A model generated the notes under the pieces. The model did no database searches and was not told the origin of the DNA. It saw nothing but the letters and a program-made list of their open reading frames with translations. A program made the position numbers and the translations under genes. This document shows, one piece after another, positions 38,385 through 47,178 of a DNA stretch of 64,000 nucleotides. The number at the start of each line of letters is the position of its first letter. Positions within the stretch are counted from its first letter, which is position 1. The stretch lies in NCBI GenBank assembly GCA_964649615.1, contig CAZYPW010000008.1, forward strand, positions 574 through 64,573, given 5' to 3'. Source of the stretch: an uncultured Gammaproteobacteria bacterium. Lineage in GTDB: Bacteria; Patescibacteriota; Microgenomatia; Daviesbacterales; UBA10151.

Positions 38385-39506
38385 TTATAACTGAATTATT
38401 TCTTTGGGGGAAGTAGTCAGTTGTCTTAAAGCTGTCTTTTCCAAAACAAATAAATCCTCAATTCTAACTCCGCCAAAATCCGGGATATAAATTCCTGGTT
38501 CAATTGAAAAAACCATCCCCTCTTTTAAAATATCTTTACTTTTTGGTGACAAAGATGGGTGTTCGTGCACTTTAAGTCCAATTCCATGACCCAGGGAATG
38601 TGGAATGGTCGGGAAACCATGAGATGTGATGTATTTTCTTGCTGTCTTATCCACCTCTTTGGCCTTGATCTTCTGCCCGCTTTCTGTTGCTGCCTTGATA
38701 AATTCCACTGCCTTTTGTTGAGCTTCTAAAACAATACTGTAAACTTCTTTGTGTTTATCAGAAGGTTTTCCAAAAAATACAGTCCTTGTCATATCCGAAC
38801 AATAATTCTCAAACTTTACTCCGAAGTCAACAAGGATAAATAATCCTTGTTGTCCTGAGCGACCGGAGGGAGTCGAAGGACCCAGTTTTGTATTTCCAGT
38901 TTGATGATGGGGAACTGAGGAATTTTTTCCAAACGCCACAATTGTAGGGAAAGCGATTTCTGCTTCCTGCTTTTTAATAAAATTTTCCAGCTCCTCTGCT
39001 ATTTCTTTTTCAGTTACCCCAACTTTGATTTTCTTTAAAATATATTCAAAAGCTTGATCGCCAATTTTGCATGCTTTTTCTATTTTGCTTAACTCATCAT
39101 CTGTCTTTATAGATCTTAAATTATCTACACTAAAATGTTTTATATTTTTAAAATGCTTTTTAAAAAATTTTCCCTCCAAAACAGTTAAATTATCTTCCTC
39201 AATCCCCAATTTTTTGATCTCTTTTTTATGTTTTTTTAAAAGATCCTCTGTTGATTTTCCCTGCCCTCTTTGGAAAAGCTCTAAATGAGGCACTTCTTTT
39301 TTTATAGCTTCTGAATATCTGCCGTCTGTAATAATGTACCCAAAATTTTCTCCCAAAAAAATATATGCCTCTCTTTCATCCTTGGAAAAATTTGAATACC
39401 CTGTCAGATACTCAATATTTGAAACTGAAGAAACAAAAACAGCATCAAGCTTTTCAGTTTTAATATCTTCTCGTAACTTCTGGATTCTTTTTATATACAT
39501 ATTCAA
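38385..39506 (-). CDS. pepP: M24-family Xaa-Pro aminopeptidase/dipeptidase
   Basis: The metal-binding motifs read ...DMTRTVFFG...HSLGHGIGLKVHE...EPGIYIPDFGGVRIED. Confidence 0.8.
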   Translation of the reverse strand: MNMYIKRIQKLREDIKTEKLDAVFVSSVSNIEYLTGYSNFSKDEREAYIFLGENFGYIITDGRYSEAIKKEVPHLELFQRGQGKSTEDLLKKHKKEIKKLGIEEDNLTVLEGKFFKKHFKNIKHFSVDNLRSIKTDDELSKIEKACKIGDQAFEYILKKIKVGVTEKEIAEELENFIKKQEAEIAFPTIVAFGKNSSVPHHQTGNTKLGPSTPSGRSGQQGLFILVDFGVKFENYCSDMTRTVFFGKPSDKHKEVYSIVLEAQQKAVEFIKAATESGQKIKAKEVDKTARKYITSHGFPTIPHSLGHGIGLKVHEHPSLSPKSKDILKEGMVFSIEPGIYIPDFGGVRIEDLFVLEKTALRQLTTSPKEIIQL

Positions 39507-42463
39507 AAACTCAAAGTTCGTAACTCACAATACTTACAATCTTTTTTCCCGCATGTCTGGTCCCAAAAAGTAAGGTTTATTATTTGATCACCCACTGACT
39601 TTATCAGCTTTTCCAGTTCTTTAACTTGACTTTCAGAAATGGAAAAAATTTCTGATTTGAATTTTCCTTTTTCATCCGGTTCTATAAAATCTATCACACC
39701 CTCATTCATTTTGAACAATCCGTTTTTATACCGATCCAGCAGCAATTTATAAAATACCAGCTGTCTTAAGTAATTATATTTTTTATCATCTTTTGAACCG
39801 TCAATTTGAGATCTGGATCTTGGCTTTCCGGTTTTAAAATCATGCACCGATACGATATTGCCTCTGATAACCTCAATCATATCCAGCCGGCCATTTAATA
39901 TCAGATTATTGGAAAATTTAACACCCTTAATTTGCATTTCGCTTTGCAAATCTTTAGGCCAAGTCGGAATAATCTGATGGAAATAATTAATCAGCACTTT
40001 TTTGCCTTTTTCCACAAGCTCTTTGTAGTCTGTCTCTGATAAAGCGCTTTTATCCAAAACTTCCAGATATTTATCAATCAATATTTTCTCATTTATTTTT
40101 TTATAATGCCTGGCCTTTATAAAATAATCCAGAGCATTATGTATTGCTGTTCCGAAAATTAGAAATTTATTTTTGACATCAGGGAGAGATACCAAGTTTA
40201 TAAAAAAATATTTCCAGGGACATTCAAGAAAATTTCCCAAACCGGTAACAGATAAACCTTTCTCCAAAAATAAACTCTGTAGATATTTTTTATTTTTGGC
40301 ACTGATTTTTATTGGCTTACTGTTTGCAAATAAATCTTTTTTGTCAAAACTTTTTTCAAACTTAACAGTATCAATATACTCAACAAATTGATCATTGATT
40401 TCCTGTAAAAACTGACTGGGTAATTGTTCCCTTCCCTCAATTGAAACAGCAGGATAAGTTAAATAAATATTTTTTTTTGCTCTGGTTAACCCAACATACA
40501 AAAGCCTTCTTTCATCCTCCAGTTTTTCAAATTCAACCTCTGTTTTAACATTTTCTCCTAAAAATTTCCAGGGAATAGCAATTTTTGCATCTTTCTTCCT
40601 GCTGCCCCAACGGCTGTCAAAAAAATTGATAATAAAAACCGTTTCAAATTCCAATCCTTTCGATTTATGAACAGTCATAAGCCTGACTCCTTCATCCAGA
40701 GTTTTTTGATCTTTGGTGGAAATTGTTACCTTATGTTTTTTTGAAGTTTCCAAAAGATAAAGAAAATCAGATAAAGAAAACGCAGGATTTTTGTAAGTAT
40801 TCTGTTTTATCTGATTAAAAAGTGCGGTTAATTTATTTAAAACCTGATACCTGTCTGACTTTGATAAAATATCCTTCATCAACCCTGATTCATCAATTAT
40901 TTTTACAAATAAATCATCAAAAGGAATATTTACAGAAAGTGTAATCCAACCCTTATAGGTTTGTAGAAAAAGTTTAAATTTCTCATTTTTTTCTAGTGCG
41001 GAAATAAAACTAATCTTCTCTTTTTTGGCAAAATGAATTGTTTTATATAAATCAAAAGGGTCAAAGCCCAAAAAATCTATCTGCATTACCCTGGACAGAT
41101 AATACTCATCAAAAGGACTTGCCAGAGATTCCAGTATAAGGATTAATTTTTTTATCTGGTCAGATTCCAGCACATCGTCATCTGATGAAATAATAAACTT
41201 GATTCCCTTTTTGTTTAAAACCTCAACTAAAGGAAATAGATCGGCATTTCTTCTTGCTAAAACCGCGATCTCCGAAATATTGGCTCCCTTTTTAATCAGG
41301 TCTTTAATTTCTTCTCCAATATATTCATATTCCAAATTATAATCAGATAATTTGACTACTTTTATTCTGGAACCTGTTTTTTTATTATTAGATGTTAAAC
41401 GAACGGAAGGCAAAATATTGGCACTGATATTTTTTTCAATTAGTGATGTGGCTGCATCCAATATAGTTTGATATGACCGGTAATTTTTCTGCAAATTTAT
41501 CATTTTTGCCCTCTTATATAATTTTTTAAAAAACAAAAAATTCTCTAAAGATGCGCCCTGAAAACGGTATATTGCCTGACTGATATCTCCCACCACAAAT
41601 AAATTGGGATTATCATAGTAGGAAGAAATCAGTTCAACCAGTTTATTTTGGGCAGAATTTGTATCCTGGTGTTCATCTATCAAAATATATTGATACTTTT
41701 CTTGAAGACGTAAAAGGAGATCTTTTTCTTTCTGCAAAACCTTCACCGCTTCAATCAGCATATCGCTAAAATCATATTTCTTCTCATCAATCAAAGTTTG
41801 CTGGTATAGAGTAAATATCTTTAAAAATTCGCGGCATTTCTCAATATCTTTTTTTAAATCAATATATTTGCCTTTCATCTCCCCTTTATATTTACCTTTT
41901 TCATGATATAAATCGGGAGCAGAGACAAACTCCTCCTGCCATTTGTTGATAGCTTCTTCTAATCTTTTGTGACTGATCCCTTCCTTTTTTAAATTGTTAA
42001 TTGAGGATAAAATATCGCGGATGTAATAGAGAGAATCTCCAAAGGGGCGCAGAATTTTAAAATCATCTTTTTCCAGTAACCTTTCCAAAATCTCCAGTTG
42101 TTCAATCTCTGTAATTGACTCTGCTGACAAAAGATAGGGGAATTCATCAGGATAATTTTTAATAATGTCATTAGCAAAAGAATGAAATGTTGAAATCTCA
42201 ACCCGAAATGCAGGCGTTCCGATAATTTCGGCAAGCCTTTTTCTCATCTCATATGCTGCCGATTCGGAAAATGTTAAAGCAAGAATATTTTCAGGGTTGA
42301 CTTGTGTCTTAAGTAAAATATTTGCAATCCTAACAGTCAAGATTTGGGTTTTACCTGTACCAGGACCGGCAAGCACCATCACAGGGCCCTCAATTTCATC
42401 AACTGCTTCTTTCTGCTGAGGATTTAAATTTTTGTATGCAAGTTTAAATTCATTTGTTATCAT
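39503..42463 (-). CDS. UvrD/PcrA-type SF1 helicase fused to a C-terminal Cas4/AddB-type Fe-S RecB-family nuclease
   Basis: The helicase has Walker A AGPGTGKTQ, DEHQDTN and VGLTRAK. The nuclease has GRLDMIEV, VHDFKTGK, QLVFY (QxxxY) and a 1+3 cysteine set (CPWKYF ... CGKKDCKYC). It overlaps the DUF2130-like gene by 14 nt. Confidence 0.75.
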   Translation of the reverse strand: MITNEFKLAYKNLNPQQKEAVDEIEGPVMVLAGPGTGKTQILTVRIANILLKTQVNPENILALTFSESAAYEMRKRLAEIIGTPAFRVEISTFHSFANDIIKNYPDEFPYLLSAESITEIEQLEILERLLEKDDFKILRPFGDSLYYIRDILSSINNLKKEGISHKRLEEAINKWQEEFVSAPDLYHEKGKYKGEMKGKYIDLKKDIEKCREFLKIFTLYQQTLIDEKKYDFSDMLIEAVKVLQKEKDLLLRLQEKYQYILIDEHQDTNSAQNKLVELISSYYDNPNLFVVGDISQAIYRFQGASLENFLFFKKLYKRAKMINLQKNYRSYQTILDAATSLIEKNISANILPSVRLTSNNKKTGSRIKVVKLSDYNLEYEYIGEEIKDLIKKGANISEIAVLARRNADLFPLVEVLNKKGIKFIISSDDDVLESDQIKKLILILESLASPFDEYYLSRVMQIDFLGFDPFDLYKTIHFAKKEKISFISALEKNEKFKLFLQTYKGWITLSVNIPFDDLFVKIIDESGLMKDILSKSDRYQVLNKLTALFNQIKQNTYKNPAFSLSDFLYLLETSKKHKVTISTKDQKTLDEGVRLMTVHKSKGLEFETVFIINFFDSRWGSRKKDAKIAIPWKFLGENVKTEVEFEKLEDERRLLYVGLTRAKKNIYLTYPAVSIEGREQLPSQFLQEINDQFVEYIDTVKFEKSFDKKDLFANSKPIKISAKNKKYLQSLFLEKGLSVTGLGNFLECPWKYFFINLVSLPDVKNKFLIFGTAIHNALDYFIKARHYKKINEKILIDKYLEVLDKSALSETDYKELVEKGKKVLINYFHQIIPTWPKDLQSEMQIKGVKFSNNLILNGRLDMIEVIRGNIVSVHDFKTGKPRSRSQIDGSKDDKKYNYLRQLVFYKLLLDRYKNGLFKMNEGVIDFIEPDEKGKFKSEIFSISESQVKELEKLIKSVGDQIINLTFWDQTCGKKDCKYCELRTLSF

Positions 42464-43601
42464 CTGTCTTAGTTTCTAATAATAAAGTTTCTGCTTCTAA
42501 AGCTTTTATTTCAGGCAAAGAAGCTCCCATTAGACCCTGCAGATCTCCATACATCCCAACTGTATTATCAATTACTTTCTGAATCTGTTTTTCTCTTTTA
42601 GCCCAAACTCTTGTATAAAGCTGTTTTTCAGATTCTAAATCCCCTTTCATGCTACTGAAAGCTTCAATTATTGCTTCAAATCGCTGCCTGAATTCATTTC
42701 CGCAAAGATAGGAATATAAAATTTCCATTTTGCTGTTTTTATCGACAACCGAAAGTTTACTCTTGGCAAGTTCCAACAGACTATTTCTTATAAGTTTTGC
42801 TAAAGACAAAAAAGCATCAAAACTTGCAATATGTACACCATCTTTGGTATCAAAATTCTTTATTCCCTCAGGTAGAATGCTGGAAATAATTATTGCAACG
42901 TCTGCTTTCGAGGCTCTCTGATCATCTTTCAATTTCTGTATCCACCCTTCAGTCCAATTTTTAGTCCGTTTGCTCTCCCAGATAATAGCTCCGCAAATTC
43001 TTCCATTTGAATCTTGTACTCTTTGTATAACATCCGCCCCCACAATGCCCTTTGGAACAGGAATTATTTCATCTGAAGGGAATTCTTTTTTTAAAATCTC
43101 TTCCAGCTCAAGTTCCATAACTTCCCCCTGTAGCTGCTGTGAACCCAAAGAGGCTTTTCTTTGTGCTTCTTCAAGAGATTTTTTCATCGCTTCCATCTGA
43201 TTCTCGTATTCTTTTTCTTTCAAATGAAACTTTTCTGCAACTTCTGTTTCAGTTTTTTCCTGAATTTTTTTTCTTTCTTCGTCAATTTGTCTTTGCTTTT
43301 CCAACTCCAGATTTTTTTCTTTTTCTTCCAGTTCTTGAGTTTTCTTCCGCAGTCCCAGCTCATATTCTCTGGCTTTTTCCAACTCTTCCTGCTGTTTTTT
43401 TACCCTTTCTTCTAAAACTGATCTTTCTTTTAAATCCTGTTCTTTAATTCTCTCTTCCAGTTTTAATTTTTCGTTAATCCATTTTTTATTAAACTCATCC
43501 CTTAATGACTGCTTTATTTTATCCTCAAGCTGACCTTTAAGGGCCTCGTCAACAGATATTTCTTTTTTACAGTTCGGACAAATCAAGATAGCTGCGCTCA
43601 T
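42450..43601 (-). CDS. DUF2130-like protein: N-terminal Zn-ribbon, long K/E-rich coiled coil and a C-terminal domain with a D...ExK motif
   Basis: The N-terminus reads CPNCKKEI. About 130 aa of heptad-rich coiled coil follow. The C-terminal GADVIQRV...GAIIWESKRTK is compatible with a PD-(D/E)xK fold. The family assignment is from memory. Confidence 0.5.
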   Translation of the reverse strand: MSAAILICPNCKKEISVDEALKGQLEDKIKQSLRDEFNKKWINEKLKLEERIKEQDLKERSVLEERVKKQQEELEKAREYELGLRKKTQELEEKEKNLELEKQRQIDEERKKIQEKTETEVAEKFHLKEKEYENQMEAMKKSLEEAQRKASLGSQQLQGEVMELELEEILKKEFPSDEIIPVPKGIVGADVIQRVQDSNGRICGAIIWESKRTKNWTEGWIQKLKDDQRASKADVAIIISSILPEGIKNFDTKDGVHIASFDAFLSLAKLIRNSLLELAKSKLSVVDKNSKMEILYSYLCGNEFRQRFEAIIEAFSSMKGDLESEKQLYTRVWAKREKQIQKVIDNTVGMYGDLQGLMGASLPEIKALEAETLLLETKTDDNK

Positions 43602-43618
43602 AACGTGGGTATTTTACC

Positions 43619-44032
43619 ATGATCAAAATTGTTAAGATATATCCTATGGTTAAAATATTTATAAAAGTTTTACCTGCTTTAATTTCATGGGCAATTTTTA
43701 TCTTTGCAGTTTTATACATTCCTTATCCGGAAACTTTAACTCAAGCAACAATTTTCCAAATACTCGGATTTTTTATCCCCTTATTTTTAGCAATCACTTT
43801 AACTTTAAACATTTTTTTAAAAAATATCTTTATATCTTTTTCAATTTCTTTAGGAATAACTATGCTACTGCTTCTTAAAGCTTTAGGTTCCCTAAATTTG
43901 GTTACTGGGATTTTAACAATTATTTCTGTAGGGCTGCTTATTAGTTATTTTAGAAAAATAAAAAAGCATAAGTTGACTTTGGAATCAAAGATACCTAAAC
44001 TCAAATCTTTTTCTAGACAAAAATCTTCTTGA
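43619..44032 (+). CDS. Hypothetical polytopic membrane protein
   Basis: Four predicted TM helices and no recognisable motif. Confidence 0.3.
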   Translation: MIKIVKIYPMVKIFIKVLPALISWAIFIFAVLYIPYPETLTQATIFQILGFFIPLFLAITLTLNIFLKNIFISFSISLGITMLLLLKALGSLNLVTGILTIISVGLLISYFRKIKKHKLTLESKIPKLKSFSRQKSS

Positions 44033-44063
44033 CTTTCGTATTTTATTTGGGTAATATAAATCC

Positions 44064-45194
44064 ATGCCCCTTAGAATTAAAATAACTAGAGATTTGTTAA
44101 ATAAATTTTATTGGGATAAAGATTTATCTATATATCAAATTGCTCCCATTTTAAAATACCATCCAGCAACTGTGGCAAAAAAATTGCATGAATTTAACAT
44201 TACTATCAAAACACCTACTGAAAGAACTATACTCTCTAAAAATAATCTTAAAGATTTATATTTAAAAGAAGGGCTATCTACAAATCAAGTCGCTAAACAA
44301 CTAAAATGTAGTGTTAAAACTGTCAGAAGAGGAATGAGAATATACAATATTTCTCTTCGTCCTCTGAAAAGAATTACCATAGAAAAAAAGATATTGGAAA
44401 CTCTTTACTATAAAAGTAATCTCTCGTTACAAACCATCGGGAAAAGGTATAATCTGACGCCATCTGGTGTTCTAAGGAAAATGAGAAAATATAATATCCG
44501 CTTAAAAACTAGTTGGGAAAATAATACTATTCATCCCAAAATACCTTTTAATGGTTCTTCTGAGGAAAAAGCTTATCTTATCGGCTTTAGATTGGGGGAT
44601 TTAGGAGTAAAGCAGAAAAGTAAACGTACTGGTTCTATTGTAGTCAAGTCTAACACCACAAAACTTGAACAAGTTACTTTGATGAAAAATCTATTTTCTT
44701 GTTATTCCGCCGTTTGGATCAGTGGGCCCAATATCAAAGGAGTATTCCATTTTACAACACTTTTACATCCCTCATTTGATTTTTTAATTCCTAAGAATGA
44801 TTGTATACCAGATTGGATCAAAAACACCAAAAAGCTTTTTCTTGCTTTTATAGCTGGGTACACGGACGCAGAGGGTAATATCGGAGTGTACGGTGGAAGA
44901 GCTCGTTTTAGAATTGGATCATATGACATAGGTATCTTGAGAAGTATAAATGATTTCTTTGCAAAACTCGGCCTTAGAACTATCCTAAGATTAGAGCAAC
45001 CAAAAGGTTTCATTGATAAACGAGGTGTTATACATAACGGAGATTTTTGGCGTGTATGTATAAATGAAAAGAATTCCCTGTTAAAAATTTTTGATTTATT
45101 AATTGTTTACATGAAGCATCAAAAGAGAATAGCAGATTTGCTGAAAGCAAGAGTTAATATTCTACAAAGAAATCATGCTATAATCCAGGCATGA
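44064..45194 (+). CDS. Free-standing double-motif LAGLIDADG homing endonuclease with three N-terminal HTH repeats
   Basis: The LAGLIDADG-like motifs are KAYLIGFRLGDLG and FLAFIAGYTDAEGNIGV. There are three ~55-aa repeats (...LSxxQIAxxLKxSxxTVxRxxRxYNI). The stop overlaps the metG ATG as ATGA. Confidence 0.65.
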   Translation: MPLRIKITRDLLNKFYWDKDLSIYQIAPILKYHPATVAKKLHEFNITIKTPTERTILSKNNLKDLYLKEGLSTNQVAKQLKCSVKTVRRGMRIYNISLRPLKRITIEKKILETLYYKSNLSLQTIGKRYNLTPSGVLRKMRKYNIRLKTSWENNTIHPKIPFNGSSEEKAYLIGFRLGDLGVKQKSKRTGSIVVKSNTTKLEQVTLMKNLFSCYSAVWISGPNIKGVFHFTTLLHPSFDFLIPKNDCIPDWIKNTKKLFLAFIAGYTDAEGNIGVYGGRARFRIGSYDIGILRSINDFFAKLGLRTILRLEQPKGFIDKRGVIHNGDFWRVCINEKNSLLKIFDLLIVYMKHQKRIADLLKARVNILQRNHAIIQA

Positions 45195-46576
45195 AGAAGT
45201 ATTTTGTTACTACGCCTATTTATTACGTAAACGATGTCGCACACATTGGGCATGCTTATCCTACCGTAGCAGCCGATGTTATAACTCGTTACTGGAAATT
45301 AAAAGGATACGACGCTAGACTTCTAACAGGCACTGATGAACATGGAGCAAAAATTGCCGAAGCTGCCAAAAAACATGATGAAGAACCAAAACAATATGCT
45401 GATGAGATTTCTGAAAAATTTAAAGAGGCTTGGAAAAAACTAAATATTAATTATGCTAGATTTATTAGAACAACTGACGAAGATCATATAAAAATTGCCC
45501 AAGATTTCTTGCAAAAACTTTATGACAAAGGTGCAATAGATCCAAAACCAAGACTTTATAAAGGATTATATTGTATCGGTCACGAAAAGTTTATGTCTCC
45601 TGATGAATTAAAAGATGGGCTATGCCCAGATCATAAAACAAAACCTGTTGAGCATTCGGAGGAAAATTACTATTTTAAACTTAGTAACTATCAAGAAAAA
45701 TTAGAAAAATTAATTGGCTCTGACGAAATTAAAGTAAGACCGATCTCAAGAAAAAATGAGATACTAGGAAAAATAAAACAAGGATTAGAAGATATCTCAA
45801 TTTCTCGAGCCAACCTTGAGTGGGGAATTCCTCTACCTTTTGATCTTTCTCATACTGCTTATGTTTGGATAGAGGCTTTAATTAATTACTATACTTATGG
45901 ATCACAAAATAGAATTTGGCCTGCTGATTTACACTTAGTAGGAAGAGATATCGTTTGGTTTCACAGCATAATTTGGCCTGCTATGTTACTGGCCATTAAT
46001 GAACGGCTACCGAAGGAAATTTTTGGTCATGGATTTTTTACAATTGATGGACAAAAGATGTCAAAGACTATCGGAAATGTAATTCATCCAGATGATTTAG
46101 TTGAAAAATATGGAGTTGATGGTACCAGGTATGTTCTACTTGCGGCATTTCCTTTTGGGGAAGATGGTGATTTTTCCTGGGATTTATTTGATAGATTATA
46201 TAACGCAGATTTGGCCAATGGCTTAGGCAATTTAGTGGCCAGAGTGGCTAAGCTATGTGAACAAAATAATATTACTGCTACAGCGGGACCAGATGTCTGG
46301 TGCGCTGATTTGGAAAAATTTATGGGGGAGTTTAAATTTAATGAAGCAATTGCAGTTATTTGGACGCTGATAACTGAGGCCGACCAGAAAGTAAATTTGG
46401 AAAAACCCTGGGAGCTGGCGGGTGAAAAAGCCAAAGTAGTTTTGGAGGATTTGGTTAAAAGAATTCAGGCAATTGGTTTTAATTTGCAGCCATTTTTACC
46501 CCAAACTTCAGAAAAAATCTTAAAACAATTTTCCGGAGAAATTAAATCAGGTAAACCCTTGTTCCCCCGCATATGA
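45191..46576 (+). CDS. metG: Methionyl-tRNA synthetase (short form lacking the C-terminal tRNA-binding domain)
   Basis: The HIGH motif is HIGHAY and the KMSKS motif is KMSKT. The anticodon-binding helical domain is present. Confidence 0.9.
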   Translation: MKKYFVTTPIYYVNDVAHIGHAYPTVAADVITRYWKLKGYDARLLTGTDEHGAKIAEAAKKHDEEPKQYADEISEKFKEAWKKLNINYARFIRTTDEDHIKIAQDFLQKLYDKGAIDPKPRLYKGLYCIGHEKFMSPDELKDGLCPDHKTKPVEHSEENYYFKLSNYQEKLEKLIGSDEIKVRPISRKNEILGKIKQGLEDISISRANLEWGIPLPFDLSHTAYVWIEALINYYTYGSQNRIWPADLHLVGRDIVWFHSIIWPAMLLAINERLPKEIFGHGFFTIDGQKMSKTIGNVIHPDDLVEKYGVDGTRYVLLAAFPFGEDGDFSWDLFDRLYNADLANGLGNLVARVAKLCEQNNITATAGPDVWCADLEKFMGEFKFNEAIAVIWTLITEADQKVNLEKPWELAGEKAKVVLEDLVKRIQAIGFNLQPFLPQTSEKILKQFSGEIKSGKPLFPRI

Positions 46577-47178
46577 TCTTTGTCTCATCAATAAAACTAA
46601 ATGGGAATATGTCCATATATTATGGAGATCCCAAGAAAGCTTTAGAGAATAGGAAAAGGTTTTTTGGAAAATTAGGAATTAATATAAAGAATGTTGTTGA
46701 AGTTAAACAAGTTCATGGTAATAAAGTCCTTCTAGCAGAAGATATTTTAAATTCCACTGCAGAAGCTGATAGTCTCCTCACTAACAAACAAGGGTTCATT
46801 TTGATGATGAAGATTGCAGACTGTATGGCAATTGGTTTATATGATCCAAAGCATAATGCTATAGCTTTAATCCACGCTGGATTTAGAGGGCTAGATAATG
46901 GGATCATTAAAAATTCCATTGATAAAATGAGGAAAAAATATAAAACTAATCCCAAAGATTTAATTATTAAAATCAACCCATCTATTGGGCCGTGCCATTA
47001 CCGGATAGACTTATGGAAACAAGCCGAAGAACAACTTATAGATGCAGGTGTCTTAAAGAAAAATATTGATAACCCAAAAATCTGCACTTATGAATCATCA
47101 GATTATTTTTCTCACAGAAGGTCAGATGATACAAACACAACTGAGGGCAGGTTTGTTACAATATTCGGATTATGTTAA
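46573..47178 (+). CDS. pgeF: PgeF/YfiH-family (DUF152) purine-nucleoside phosphorylase/peptidoglycan editing factor
   Basis: QVHG, ADCMAIGLYDP, HAGFRG and ...CTYESSDYFSHRR motifs are present. Confidence 0.75.
   Translation: MIFVSSIKLNGNMSIYYGDPKKALENRKRFFGKLGINIKNVVEVKQVHGNKVLLAEDILNSTAEADSLLTNKQGFILMMKIADCMAIGLYDPKHNAIALIHAGFRGLDNGIIKNSIDKMRKKYKTNPKDLIIKINPSIGPCHYRIDLWKQAEEQLIDAGVLKKNIDNPKICTYESSDYFSHRRSDDTNTTEGRFVTIFGLC

What the first reader, a model, noticed from the sequence alone, without database searches (positions are those of the whole stretch)
44064..45194. Free-standing LAGLIDADG endonuclease with triple HTH repeats, stop-start overlapped with metG
The two LAGLIDADG-type motifs (LIGFRLGDLG, FIAGYTDAEGN) and three ~55-aa helix-turn-helix repeats indicate a homing-endonuclease-derived DNA-binding protein. 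It is not inside an intron or intein. It is translationally coupled (ATGA) to the essential metG-pgeF-tatD operon. It may be a domesticated regulator, or a selfish element anchored to an essential transcript.
Basis: partly seen in the sequence, partly recalled or inferred. Interest (0 to 1): 0.6.

Follow-up and report, generated by a model that had tools for sequence, protein, structure and literature searches.

The report
Mobile homing endonuclease gene at metG
This gene most likely encodes a selfish DNA-cutting enzyme that has inserted just ahead of an essential gene (metG); it belongs to a large, undescribed family in ultra-small bacteria and archaea that appears to cut metG copies lacking it and may replace them in the process.

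Summary
Window 44064..45194(+) is an intact 376-aa ORF with three 49-50-aa helix-turn-helix (HTH) repeats and a two-motif LAGLIDADG core. Its TGA overlaps the metG ATG.

The LAGLIDADG fold is supported by an AlphaFold model (pLDDT 91.8) whose best PDB matches are all LAGLIDADG enzymes. Both catalytic acids (D179, E270) are invariant in 40 homologues.

- The gene sits directly 5' of metG wherever enough downstream DNA was held. That is 8 homologue contexts, 2 genome loci and about 60 metagenome loci, in CPR bacteria and DPANN archaea.
- It is absent from 78 of the 80 closest metG loci. Daviesbacteria relatives with the same gene order show clean empty sites.
- Sister subfamilies sit 5' of iscU, ileS and lepA.
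- In at least 25 of 62 loci a truncated metG 5' stub lies upstream of the gene and ends at the HIGH-motif codons. A lepA stub shows the same layout. This suggests where the enzyme cuts and that it can replace the resident gene's 5' end.

The window copy has no stub. Cleavage, target and mobility are inferred, not shown. I found no paper describing this family.

The parts
43619..44032 (+). Left flank: small membrane-protein gene (137 aa). In HEG-less Daviesbacteria relatives its homologue abuts or overlaps the metG start.
   Evidence: Homologues lie 0-50 nt from metG in L014-L020, L023, L030, L033, L035 and L039.
44029..44057 (+). Promoter-like element of the cassette: TTGACT (44029-44034), 17 nt, TAATAT (44052-44057), then 6 nt to the ATG. 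This spacing suggests a leaderless transcript. The -35 hexamer overlaps the stop codon of the upstream gene.
   Evidence: One search found the site, but the region has no more such sites than chance gives. The same arrangement sits before the HEG start in L003, L001, L002, L097, L100, L101 and L126. Function is inferred.
44064..45194 (+). Free-standing HTH-LAGLIDADG homing endonuclease gene (HEG), 376 aa, intact.
44073..44219 (+). HTH repeat 1 (residues 4-52; helices 9-18, 23-30, 34-43).
   Evidence: Pfam HTH_38, E = 2e-8.
44223..44369 (+). HTH repeat 2 (residues 54-102; helices 59-68, 73-79, 84-93).
   Evidence: The family profile matches Cbp2 (2lvs) across repeats 1-2 at E = 5.6e-5.
44370..44519 (+). 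HTH repeat 3 (residues 103-152; helices 108-117, 122-128, 133-142).
44559..45101 (+). [quoted passage not shown] A long C-terminal helix (residues 353-375) follows.
   Evidence: pLDDT above 90 throughout. I-DmoI TM-score normalised to the target 0.61-0.69; PI-PfuI E = 5e-9.
44574..44606 (+). LAGLIDADG motif 1, YLIGFRLGDLG. The catalytic Asp179 codon is 44598-44600.
   Evidence: D179 is invariant in 40 homologues and aligns with I-DmoI D21.
44847..44879 (+). LAGLIDADG motif 2, FIAGYTDAEGN. The catalytic Glu270 codon is 44871-44873.
   Evidence: E270 is invariant and aligns with I-DmoI E117.
45179..45194 (+). HEG 3' tail: TATAAT (45179-45184), CCAGGC, then ATGA. This is a -10-like hexamer 6 nt before the metG ATG, followed by the stop/start overlap. 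It encodes the conserved C-terminus IIQA*.
   Evidence: L003 and L001 end in GGTATAATCCACGCATGA or a near-identical sequence. The same 18-mer lies upstream of metG in the HEG-less locus L017.
45191..46576 (+). metG (MetRS, 461 aa), the gene the element is attached to and the inferred target gene of the family.
45239..45253 (+). Codons for A17-H18-I19-G20-H21 of MetRS (the HIGH motif). This is the position where metG stubs end in related loci, so it is the inferred cleavage region in HEG-less alleles. Here codon 17 is GCA (Ala), where most HEG-less relatives have CCN (Pro).
   Evidence: Inference only; no cleavage data.

Best explanation
The ORF is a free-standing LAGLIDADG homing endonuclease gene, that is, a selfish mobile cassette. 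It is inserted between a small membrane-protein gene and metG in a Candidatus Daviesbacteria genome.

What the sequence shows directly:
- The protein has three homeodomain-like HTH modules, presumably giving extra DNA-binding specificity.
- These are fused to a monomeric two-domain LAGLIDADG nuclease that keeps both metal-binding acids.
- The cassette appears to carry its own promoter-like element, placed so the transcript would be leaderless.
- Its last codons form a -10-like hexamer and the ATGA overlap. metG-pgeF-tatD would therefore be transcribed and translated through it.

The proposed mechanism is inferred from related loci, not shown for this copy:
1. The enzyme cuts metG alleles that lack the cassette, at or next to the codons of the HIGH catalytic motif, about 50 nt into metG.
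2. The break is repaired from a cassette-bearing allele. This copies the cassette together with the 5' end of metG, or sometimes the whole gene.
3. When only the 3' side of the break finds homology, the recipient's old 5' end is left behind as a stub upstream of the cassette.
4. When both sides are homologous, as between close relatives, no stub is left. That is the state seen in this window.
5. The cassette-linked metG copy is presumably resistant because of changes at the site. Here that may be Ala instead of Pro just before HIGH.
For: Fold and active site:
- AlphaFold model has pLDDT 91.8.
- All top Foldseek PDB hits are LAGLIDADG enzymes.
- The family profile matches PI-PfuI at E = 3.6e-7 and I-DmoI at 0.011.
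- D179 and E270 are invariant in 40 homologues that share 39-73% identity with the window protein.

Fixed position:
- The gene is directly 5' of metG on the same strand in all 8 homologue contexts looked up, in both bacteria and archaea.
- The same holds in 2 genome loci.
- It also holds in about 60 of the metagenome loci that had enough downstream DNA.
- The gap between the two genes is mostly -8 to +11 nt; 13 of 51 loci have the ATGA overlap.

Sporadic presence:
- Only 2 of the 80 closest metG loci among species-representative genomes carry it.
- Daviesbacteria relatives with 71-85% identical MetRS and the same gene order have the membrane-protein gene abutting metG.
- The HEG-less locus L017 keeps an 18-mer identical to the HEG 3' tail of L001, which looks like a deletion scar.

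Insertion footprints:
- At least 25 of 62 non-redundant loci have a metG 5' stub upstream of the HEG (z of 4 or more against shuffles).
- The stubs end between the conserved Asn and the first His of HIGH. They are often of a different MetRS subtype from the intact gene.
- The lepA subfamily locus L170 has the same stub-HEG-gene layout (z = 25).

Family behaviour:
- Subfamilies sit 5' of iscU (4 loci), ileS (one look-up) and lepA (one locus).

HEG and MetRS histories:
- Pairwise identities correlate only partly (r = 0.55).
- Some pairs are clearly discordant, for example HEG 72% against MetRS 50%.

Target motif:
- HEG-linked metG alleles have a non-canonical P-H-x-G-H motif in 24 of 63 cases, against 5 of 77 HEG-less alleles. 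This comparison is not phylogenetically controlled.
Against: - No cleavage, binding or mobility data exist for any member.
- The window copy has no stub, so the target inference rests on relatives.
- No decayed HEG remnants were found upstream of 73 HEG-less metG genes. Nearly all copies are intact.
- The HEG is about as conserved as MetRS in close pairs (66% against 76% for window and L003). Both points would also fit a function useful to the host.
- HEG and MetRS divergence are significantly correlated (Mantel p = 5e-4), so much of the history is co-inheritance.
- There is no 5'-to-3' co-conversion gradient along metG.
- The HEG's base composition matches its neighbours, so it is not a recent arrival.
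- How the intact downstream metG escapes cutting is unknown.
- The promoter-like sites are not more frequent than chance in this AT-rich region.
- The basic active-site residues of I-DmoI (K43, K120) are not conserved here.
Confidence: 0.7

Rival explanations
1. Domesticated or moonlighting DNA-binding protein. The HTH array, with or without the nuclease core, binds the metG operon control region and regulates metG-pgeF-tatD. This would resemble I-TevI autorepression or WhiA. On this reading the gene is kept because it benefits the host.
For: - It is tightly coupled to metG in every lineage.
- Copies are nearly always intact, and no pseudogene remnants were found.
- It is about as conserved as MetRS in close pairs.
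- The cassette supplies promoter-like elements for the operon.
- HTH arrays of the Cbp1/Cbp2 type are DNA-binding, non-catalytic proteins.
Against: - It is absent from 78 of the 80 closest metG loci, including near relatives with the same operon. It is therefore dispensable.
- Both catalytic acids are invariant, whereas WhiA has lost them (PMC3384342).
- The stubs show it arrived by insertion into metG.
- Sister subfamilies sit at unrelated genes: iscU, lepA and ileS.
Confidence: 0.13
2. Stranded former homing endonuclease. The gene entered by homing long ago but no longer has cleavable targets in its population. It persists here only because deleting it would remove the promoter and translational coupling of the essential metG gene.
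For: - Its composition is fully adapted to the host.
- No stub is left in the window.
- The cassette carries the only obvious promoter-like element and the ATGA coupling for metG.
- The closest relative, L014, is HEG-less but shares the window-type metG 5' end and the Ala before HIGH, as expected for a resistant allele.
Against: - The ORF is full-length with every family-invariant residue. Without selection for activity, decay would be expected.
- L017 and the other empty sites show the cassette can be lost while metG keeps working.
Confidence: 0.1
3. RNA-binding or MetRS-partner protein. On this reading it is a LAGLIDADG maturase-like protein acting on tRNA-Met or on the metG mRNA rather than on DNA.
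For: - Some LAGLIDADG proteins are RNA maturases; bI3 and I-AniI are among the structural hits.
- The link to metG is strict, and two loci show in-frame fusion to MetRS (L137 and L155).
Against: - Catalytic acids are conserved and the distribution is sporadic.
- Related subfamilies sit at iscU and lepA, which have no tRNA link.
- The HTH modules are of a DNA-binding type.
- No structured RNA or intron is present.
Confidence: 0.03

Closest known systems
Free-standing homing endonucleases of T4-like phages (Seg and Mob proteins; 'intronless homing'; review PMC2988022)
   Same: - The gene lies between host genes, next to the gene it is thought to cut.
- It is present or absent among close relatives.
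- It is expected to spread by double-strand-break repair, with co-conversion of flanking sequence.
- Its nuclease is fused to HTH-type DNA-binding modules.
   Different: - The phage enzymes are GIY-YIG or HNH nucleases in phage genomes.
- This one is a LAGLIDADG enzyme in cellular chromosomes of CPR bacteria and DPANN archaea.
- It is always at the 5' end of the target gene, coupled to it, and often leaves a 5' stub of that gene.
Monomeric LAGLIDADG homing endonucleases (I-DmoI, I-SceI, I-AniI, the PI-PfuI endonuclease domain)
   Same: - It has a two-domain LAGLIDADG fold.
- An acidic residue closes each LAGLIDADG helix (D179 and E270 align with I-DmoI D21 and E117).
   Different: - Those enzymes are encoded inside group I introns, archaeal introns or inteins and have no HTH array.
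- This protein is free-standing and has one to four N-terminal HTH repeats.
- The basic residues equivalent to I-DmoI K43 and K120 are not conserved.
WhiA/DUF199 (a LAGLIDADG protein domesticated as a transcription factor; PMC3384342)
   Same: A LAGLIDADG core joined to an HTH domain in a bacterial chromosomal gene. There is a weak profile match (3hyi, E = 0.004) and a structural match (8dy9, rank 48).
   Different: - WhiA has lost the catalytic acids, has a single C-terminal HTH, and is inherited vertically in Gram-positive bacteria.
- This protein keeps the acids, has N-terminal repeats and is sporadic.
Cbp1/Cbp2 CRISPR repeat-binding proteins of Crenarchaeota (PMC3597662; PDB 2lvs)
   Same: Tandem homeodomain-like three-helix HTH repeats joined by short basic linkers. 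The family profile matches 2lvs at E = 5.6e-5 over two repeats. NCBIfam HTH_Cbp1 scores 27.7 bits.
   Different: - Cbp proteins are small stand-alone DNA binders with no nuclease.
- The NCBIfam score is far below that family's cut-off (140 bits).
- There is no CRISPR context here.
Endonuclease ORFs in fungal mitochondrial protein genes that carry a replacement gene end (for example Allomyces atp6).
   Same: The endonuclease gene invades a protein-coding gene without an intron or intein, keeps the gene intact by bringing a spare terminal segment, and leaves the old segment behind as a remnant.
   Different: Those cases are in organelles, involve the 3' end of the gene, and mostly use GIY-YIG enzymes. 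Here the 5' end is replaced, in prokaryotic chromosomes.

Membership tests
LAGLIDADG homing endonuclease superfamily | [quoted passage not shown] | tested here: met
   The AlphaFold model has pLDDT 91.8 and this topology. More than 100 Foldseek PDB hits have E of 1e-3 or less, and all top hits are LAGLIDADG enzymes.
LAGLIDADG homing endonuclease superfamily | Acidic metal-binding residue at the end of each LAGLIDADG motif | tested here: met
   D179 and E270 are invariant in 40 homologues. They align with I-DmoI D21 and E117.
LAGLIDADG homing endonuclease superfamily | Sequence-profile membership (Pfam LAGLIDADG_3, PF14528) | tested here: inconclusive
   The window protein scores 20.8 bits against a cut-off of 22.5. 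Many homologues carry precomputed PF14528 hits. The family profile matches PI-PfuI at E = 3.6e-7.
LAGLIDADG homing endonuclease superfamily | Site-specific double-strand cleavage of a long target site | not testable with these tools
   This needs biochemistry. The target is only inferred, from where the stubs end.
LAGLIDADG homing endonuclease superfamily | Encoded within a self-splicing intron or an intein (the usual setting) | tested here: not met
   It is a free-standing ORF between two genes. There are no Rfam intron hits and no intein splicing domains.
Free-standing homing endonuclease genes ('intronless homing') | Presence/absence polymorphism at one fixed site among related genomes | tested here: met
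   Only 2 of the 80 closest metG loci are occupied. Daviesbacteria relatives with the same gene order have empty sites.
Free-standing homing endonuclease genes ('intronless homing') | Cleavage site lies in the neighbouring gene of genomes that lack the endonuclease | tested here: inconclusive
   metG stubs in at least 25 of 62 loci, and one lepA stub, end at conserved-motif codons. This is indirect, and the window copy has no stub.
Free-standing homing endonuclease genes ('intronless homing') | Co-conversion of flanking markers with the endonuclease gene | tested here: inconclusive
   Stub and intact gene are often of different MetRS subtypes. HEG and MetRS identities correlate at r = 0.55. 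There is no positional gradient along metG.
WhiA/DUF199 | Catalytic acids lost; single C-terminal HTH; vertically inherited in all members of a lineage | tested here: not met
   The acids are invariant. The HTH modules are N-terminal and triple. Only 2 of 80 related loci carry the gene.
Cbp1/Cbp2 CRISPR repeat-binding proteins | Small stand-alone protein made of HTH repeats; NCBIfam NF040595 cut-off of 140 bits | tested here: not met
   The score is 27.7 bits. The repeats are fused to a nuclease, and there is no CRISPR context.

The most novel reading that the evidence does not exclude
A large family of modular meganucleases, each an HTH array plus a LAGLIDADG core, spans bacteria and archaea. 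Members invade essential genes (metG, ileS, lepA, iscU) at or near the codons of their catalytic motifs, without an intron or intein. They keep the gene working by bringing a spare promoter and 5' end. In doing so they replace the resident 5' end, or the whole gene, with a foreign one. That would be a concrete mechanism for the well-known horizontal replacement of aminoacyl-tRNA synthetase genes.
Probability: 0.45. Interest if true: 0.85.

Novelty: new variant of a known kind. Interest (0 to 1): 0.7.

Why it matters
If the model holds, three things follow.

1. It adds a new way of life for LAGLIDADG enzymes. They would be free-standing in cellular chromosomes, parked at the 5' end of essential genes, and shared between ultra-small bacteria (CPR) and archaea (DPANN). 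Until now they were known mainly from introns and inteins.
2. The stubs give direct sequence evidence that the element can swap one MetRS type for another in place. aaRS genes are famous for horizontal transfer, and this would be a testable mechanism for it.
3. A natural meganuclease with a variable number of HTH modules (one to four, sometimes more) is a ready-made example of modular target recognition. That could interest genome-engineering work.

For genome annotation, the 'hypothetical protein' upstream of metG in many CPR and DPANN genomes can be named. Short metG, lepA or similar fragments next to it should be read as insertion footprints.

Tried and rejected
- Paralogues in the window: none found by tblastn.
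- Rfam and tRNA scans of the window: nothing, so there is no intron context.
- Viral contigs: only two distant hits at 24-25% identity. This does not look like a phage-borne family.
- Co-conversion gradient: the correlation between HEG and MetRS divergence is no stronger for the 5' quarter of MetRS. A sliding-window comparison of the window's metG with relatives shows no 5' switch.
- Decayed HEG remnants upstream of 73 HEG-less metG genes: none (best E = 0.13).
- metG stub upstream of the window HEG, and in L003 and L001: none detectable. A by-eye match between the last codons of the membrane-protein gene and a metG start was not convincing, so I dropped it.
- Stubs in the iscU and ileS subfamilies: none.
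- Promoter scan: the sites found are not enriched over shuffles. The promoter claim rests only on conservation across loci.
- Basic active-site residues: I-DmoI K43 and K120 do not map to conserved positions. K200 and R283 are only candidates.
- L017 'scar': I considered that it might be a native metG promoter. I kept the scar reading because other Daviesbacteria empty sites have a Shine-Dalgarno-led metG abutting the upstream gene, and the 18-mer is identical to the HEG tail of the distant locus L001.
- Literature: five searches found no description of this family.
Full report
**1. The observation**

Window 44064..45194(+) is an intact ORF of 376 aa. Its stop codon TGA overlaps the ATG of metG as ATGA (45191-45194). 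metG (461 aa), pgeF (Cu-oxidase_4 family) and tatD follow with 4-nt and 7-nt overlaps.

The N-terminus holds three ungapped repeats: residues 4-52, 54-102 and 103-152. The period is 49-50 aa rather than 55. Pairwise identity is 27-34%, with z = 7.3-9.1 against shuffles. Several Pfam HTH families hit them; HTH_38 is above its cut-off.

The window has no Rfam family and no tRNA and no paralogue of the ORF. The window is part of a Candidatus Daviesbacteria assembly, GCA_016176385.1, where the protein is annotated 'hypothetical'.

**2. Fold and active site**

Alone, the protein scores just below the Pfam LAGLIDADG_3 cut-off (20.8 against 22.5 bits). A profile of 40 homologues matches the following:
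- PI-PfuI, E = 3.6e-7
- Cbp2 (2lvs), E = 5.6e-5, over the HTH repeats
- WhiA, E = 0.004
- I-DmoI, E = 0.011

An AlphaFold model built on that alignment has mean pLDDT 91.8. [quoted passage not shown] Foldseek against the PDB returns only LAGLIDADG enzymes at the top: PI-PfuI, I-AniI, E-DreI, I-DmoI (TM-score normalised to the target 0.61-0.69), I-Tsp061I and I-SceI. WhiA appears at rank 48.

In the 40-sequence alignment (39-73% identity to the window protein), D179 and E270 are invariant. So are most of both motifs. They align with the catalytic D21 and E117 of I-DmoI (residue roles from PMC3384342). The basic residues of I-DmoI do not map to conserved positions. K200 and R283 are only candidates.

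**3. Genomic context in relatives**

The family is large. The searches gave:
- 389 word-index hits;
- at least 752 hits with a second query;
- 804 clusters at 50% identity with E of 1e-30 or less.

Members carry one to four HTH repeats.

Of the eleven homologue contexts looked up, eight have the gene directly 5' of metG on the same strand. This holds although the wider neighbourhood differs. These eight include loci with archaeal marker genes (RFC, aIF5A) and a protein labelled Woesearchaeota. The other three are in section 5.

Among 80 metagenome loci, about 60 of those with enough downstream DNA show the same arrangement. The spacing between the two genes is mostly -8 to +11 nt, and 13 of 51 loci have the ATGA overlap.

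**4. Sporadic distribution and empty sites**

I scanned species-representative genomes with the window's MetRS and got 80 loci (43-85% identity). Only two carry the gene.

The closest relatives lack it. These are L014-L020 and L023: MetRS 71-85% identical, with the same local gene order as the window (membrane-protein gene, metG, sometimes pgeF, tatD and a glycosyltransferase gene; a UvrD-like helicase gene and DUF2130 further upstream where the locus reaches that far). In them the membrane-protein gene abuts or overlaps metG. The window therefore carries an insertion of about 1.16 kb, roughly 44029-45190.

One HEG-less locus, L017, has upstream of metG the 18-mer GGTATAATCCACGCATGA. This is identical to the HEG 3' tail of the distant locus L001 and 17/18 identical to that of L003. 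The other empty sites instead have a Shine-Dalgarno-led metG. I read L017 as a deletion scar.

A gene that is dispensable in near relatives but always sits at one site, in two domains of life, behaves like a mobile element. It does not behave like a core regulator.

**5. Related subfamilies**

The most distant members are not at metG but directly 5' of other conserved genes:
- iscU/nifU in four independent loci: L165, L166, and the contigs of P0154 and P0160;
- ileS (P0159);
- lepA (L170).

A few others lie next to groES-groEL or uvrA. Switching of target genes between subfamilies is typical of homing endonuclease families.

**6. Insertion footprints**

Reading the DNA upstream of the HEG in relatives showed short copies of the metG 5' end. 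An example is L002...ACC TTA CCG TAT GTG AAT GCC GAG CCA CAT | TTG TTGACA.

A systematic search found a significant stub (z of 4 or more) in 25 of 62 non-redundant loci. About ten weaker ones are visible by eye. The stubs have these properties:
- They start at the metG ATG, often with their own -10-like element upstream.
- They end between the conserved Asn and the first His of the HIGH motif.
- They are followed at once by the cassette's promoter-like element.
- They are often of a different MetRS subtype from the intact gene downstream. In L009 and L032, for example, an AIPYVN-type stub precedes a PIYYVN-type intact gene.

The lepA locus shows the same layout, with a stub running through the GTP-binding motif (z = 25).

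The simplest reading has three steps. A break is made at those codons in a gene without the cassette. The 3' side is repaired by homology from a donor carrying the cassette. The 5' side is joined without homology. Such 'one-sided' events are described for phage T4 (PMC2988022). Where both sides are homologous, no stub is expected. That matches the window, L003 and L001, which have none.

**7. Expression signals**

In bacterial loci the HEG start is preceded by TTGACt-N17-tAATAt and 5-6 nt. In the window this is 44029-44057, with the ATG at 44064. Loci that look archaeal have a conserved TTAGGACA...TTTAAATA about 30 nt before the start.

The HEG's conserved C-terminal codons form a -10-like hexamer 6 nt before the metG ATG (window TATAAT, 45179-45184).

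These are conserved arrangements, not tested promoters. The generic scan is not above chance.

**8. History of HEG against MetRS**

For 45 HEG/MetRS pairs, pairwise identities correlate at r = 0.55 (Mantel p = 5e-4). There are clear discordances in both directions, for example HEG 72% against MetRS 50%, and HEG 46% against MetRS 72%. This fits linked inheritance with occasional independent movement or gene replacement. I found no 5'-to-3' gradient.

**9. Possible immunity**

HEG-linked metG alleles depart from P-H-[ILVM]-G-[HFSTN] in 24 of 63 cases, against 5 of 77 HEG-less alleles (Fisher p = 5e-6). The two sets were sampled differently, so this is only a lead.

In the window's own clade, both HEG-bearing alleles (window and L003) have Ala (GCN) instead of Pro (CCN) just before HIGH. 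This is exactly where the stubs end. The HEG-less L014 shares this change and could be a resistant ex-carrier.

**10. Points against a purely selfish reading**

- Copies are nearly all intact.
- No decayed remnants were found at 73 empty sites.
- The protein is about as conserved as MetRS in close pairs.
- Its base composition is fully adapted to the host.

Rapid deletion of useless DNA in these very small genomes could explain the first two points. A moonlighting role, such as autoregulation of the operon as in I-TevI, cannot be excluded.

**11. Comparison with known systems and verdict**

By fold and active site the protein is a LAGLIDADG homing endonuclease. By setting it resembles the free-standing GIY-YIG and HNH endonucleases of T4-like phages. 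It is not a WhiA-type domesticated regulator: the acids are kept, the HTH modules are N-terminal repeats, and the distribution is sporadic. It is not a Cbp1/Cbp2 protein either, although its HTH repeats resemble theirs (PMC3597662).

Five literature searches found no description of this family. The known CPR LAGLIDADG enzymes are those in rRNA introns (PMC11270868).

I rate it a new variant of a known kind. My confidence is about 0.7 that it is, or recently was, a mobile homing endonuclease gene. It is about 0.5 that the target is the HIGH-motif region of metG.

Noticed in passing
L137/L138 (3001-5982) and L155 (2794-5379): The HEG and MetRS form one continuous ORF (993 and 861 aa) with no stop codon between them. 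This is either an in-frame fusion or a lost stop codon. In L137 the second motif reads DAEA rather than DAEG.
   Followed up: partly
window 45191-46576 compared with L014-L024 and with L030, L033, L035, L039: Daviesbacteria loci with the same gene order and equally similar flanks (tatD 57-69%; glycosyltransferase 65-81% where it aligns in full) carry two deeply different MetRS types. One is the PIYYVN type (64-85% identical to the window); the other is the AIPYVN type (52-54%). metG seems to have been replaced in place within this lineage.
   Followed up: partly
window 46573-47178 (pgeF): The pgeF gene between metG and tatD is present in the window, L003, L019 and L033. It is absent in L014, L016, L017 and L018. 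This is a second presence/absence difference in the same operon.
   Followed up: no
L126, about 110 nt upstream of the HEG start: The metG stub is itself preceded by GTACAATACGAGTGTGGA, which resembles the HEG 3' tail (GGTACAATTCAGTTATGA). This could be a native promoter or a trace of an earlier invasion at the same site.
   Followed up: no
window 39503-43601, minus strand: A 986-aa UvrD-type helicase with a PD-(D/E)XK nuclease domain overlaps a DUF2130 protein gene by 14 nt. The pair is conserved upstream of the metG locus in Daviesbacteria relatives, and related loci have RmuC in place of DUF2130.
   Followed up: no
protein family: P0223, P0245, P0257, P0270: Some proteins of 650-820 aa match the profile only over the HTH region, in 7-8 separate stretches. 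These are long arrays of the same HTH repeat. Whether they carry a nuclease was not checked.
   Followed up: no
L169, L171/L172: Distant family members (36-37% identity) lie next to groES-groEL and uvrA on the opposite strand. They are not directly 5' of a co-oriented conserved gene, so not every member fits the '5' of its target' pattern.
   Followed up: no
L174 (viral contig IMGVR_UViG_3300023197_000086, 2962-4134): A 390-aa protein with 25% identity to the window protein is encoded on a high-GC viral contig of 111 kb. It is the only full-length viral relative found.
   Followed up: no
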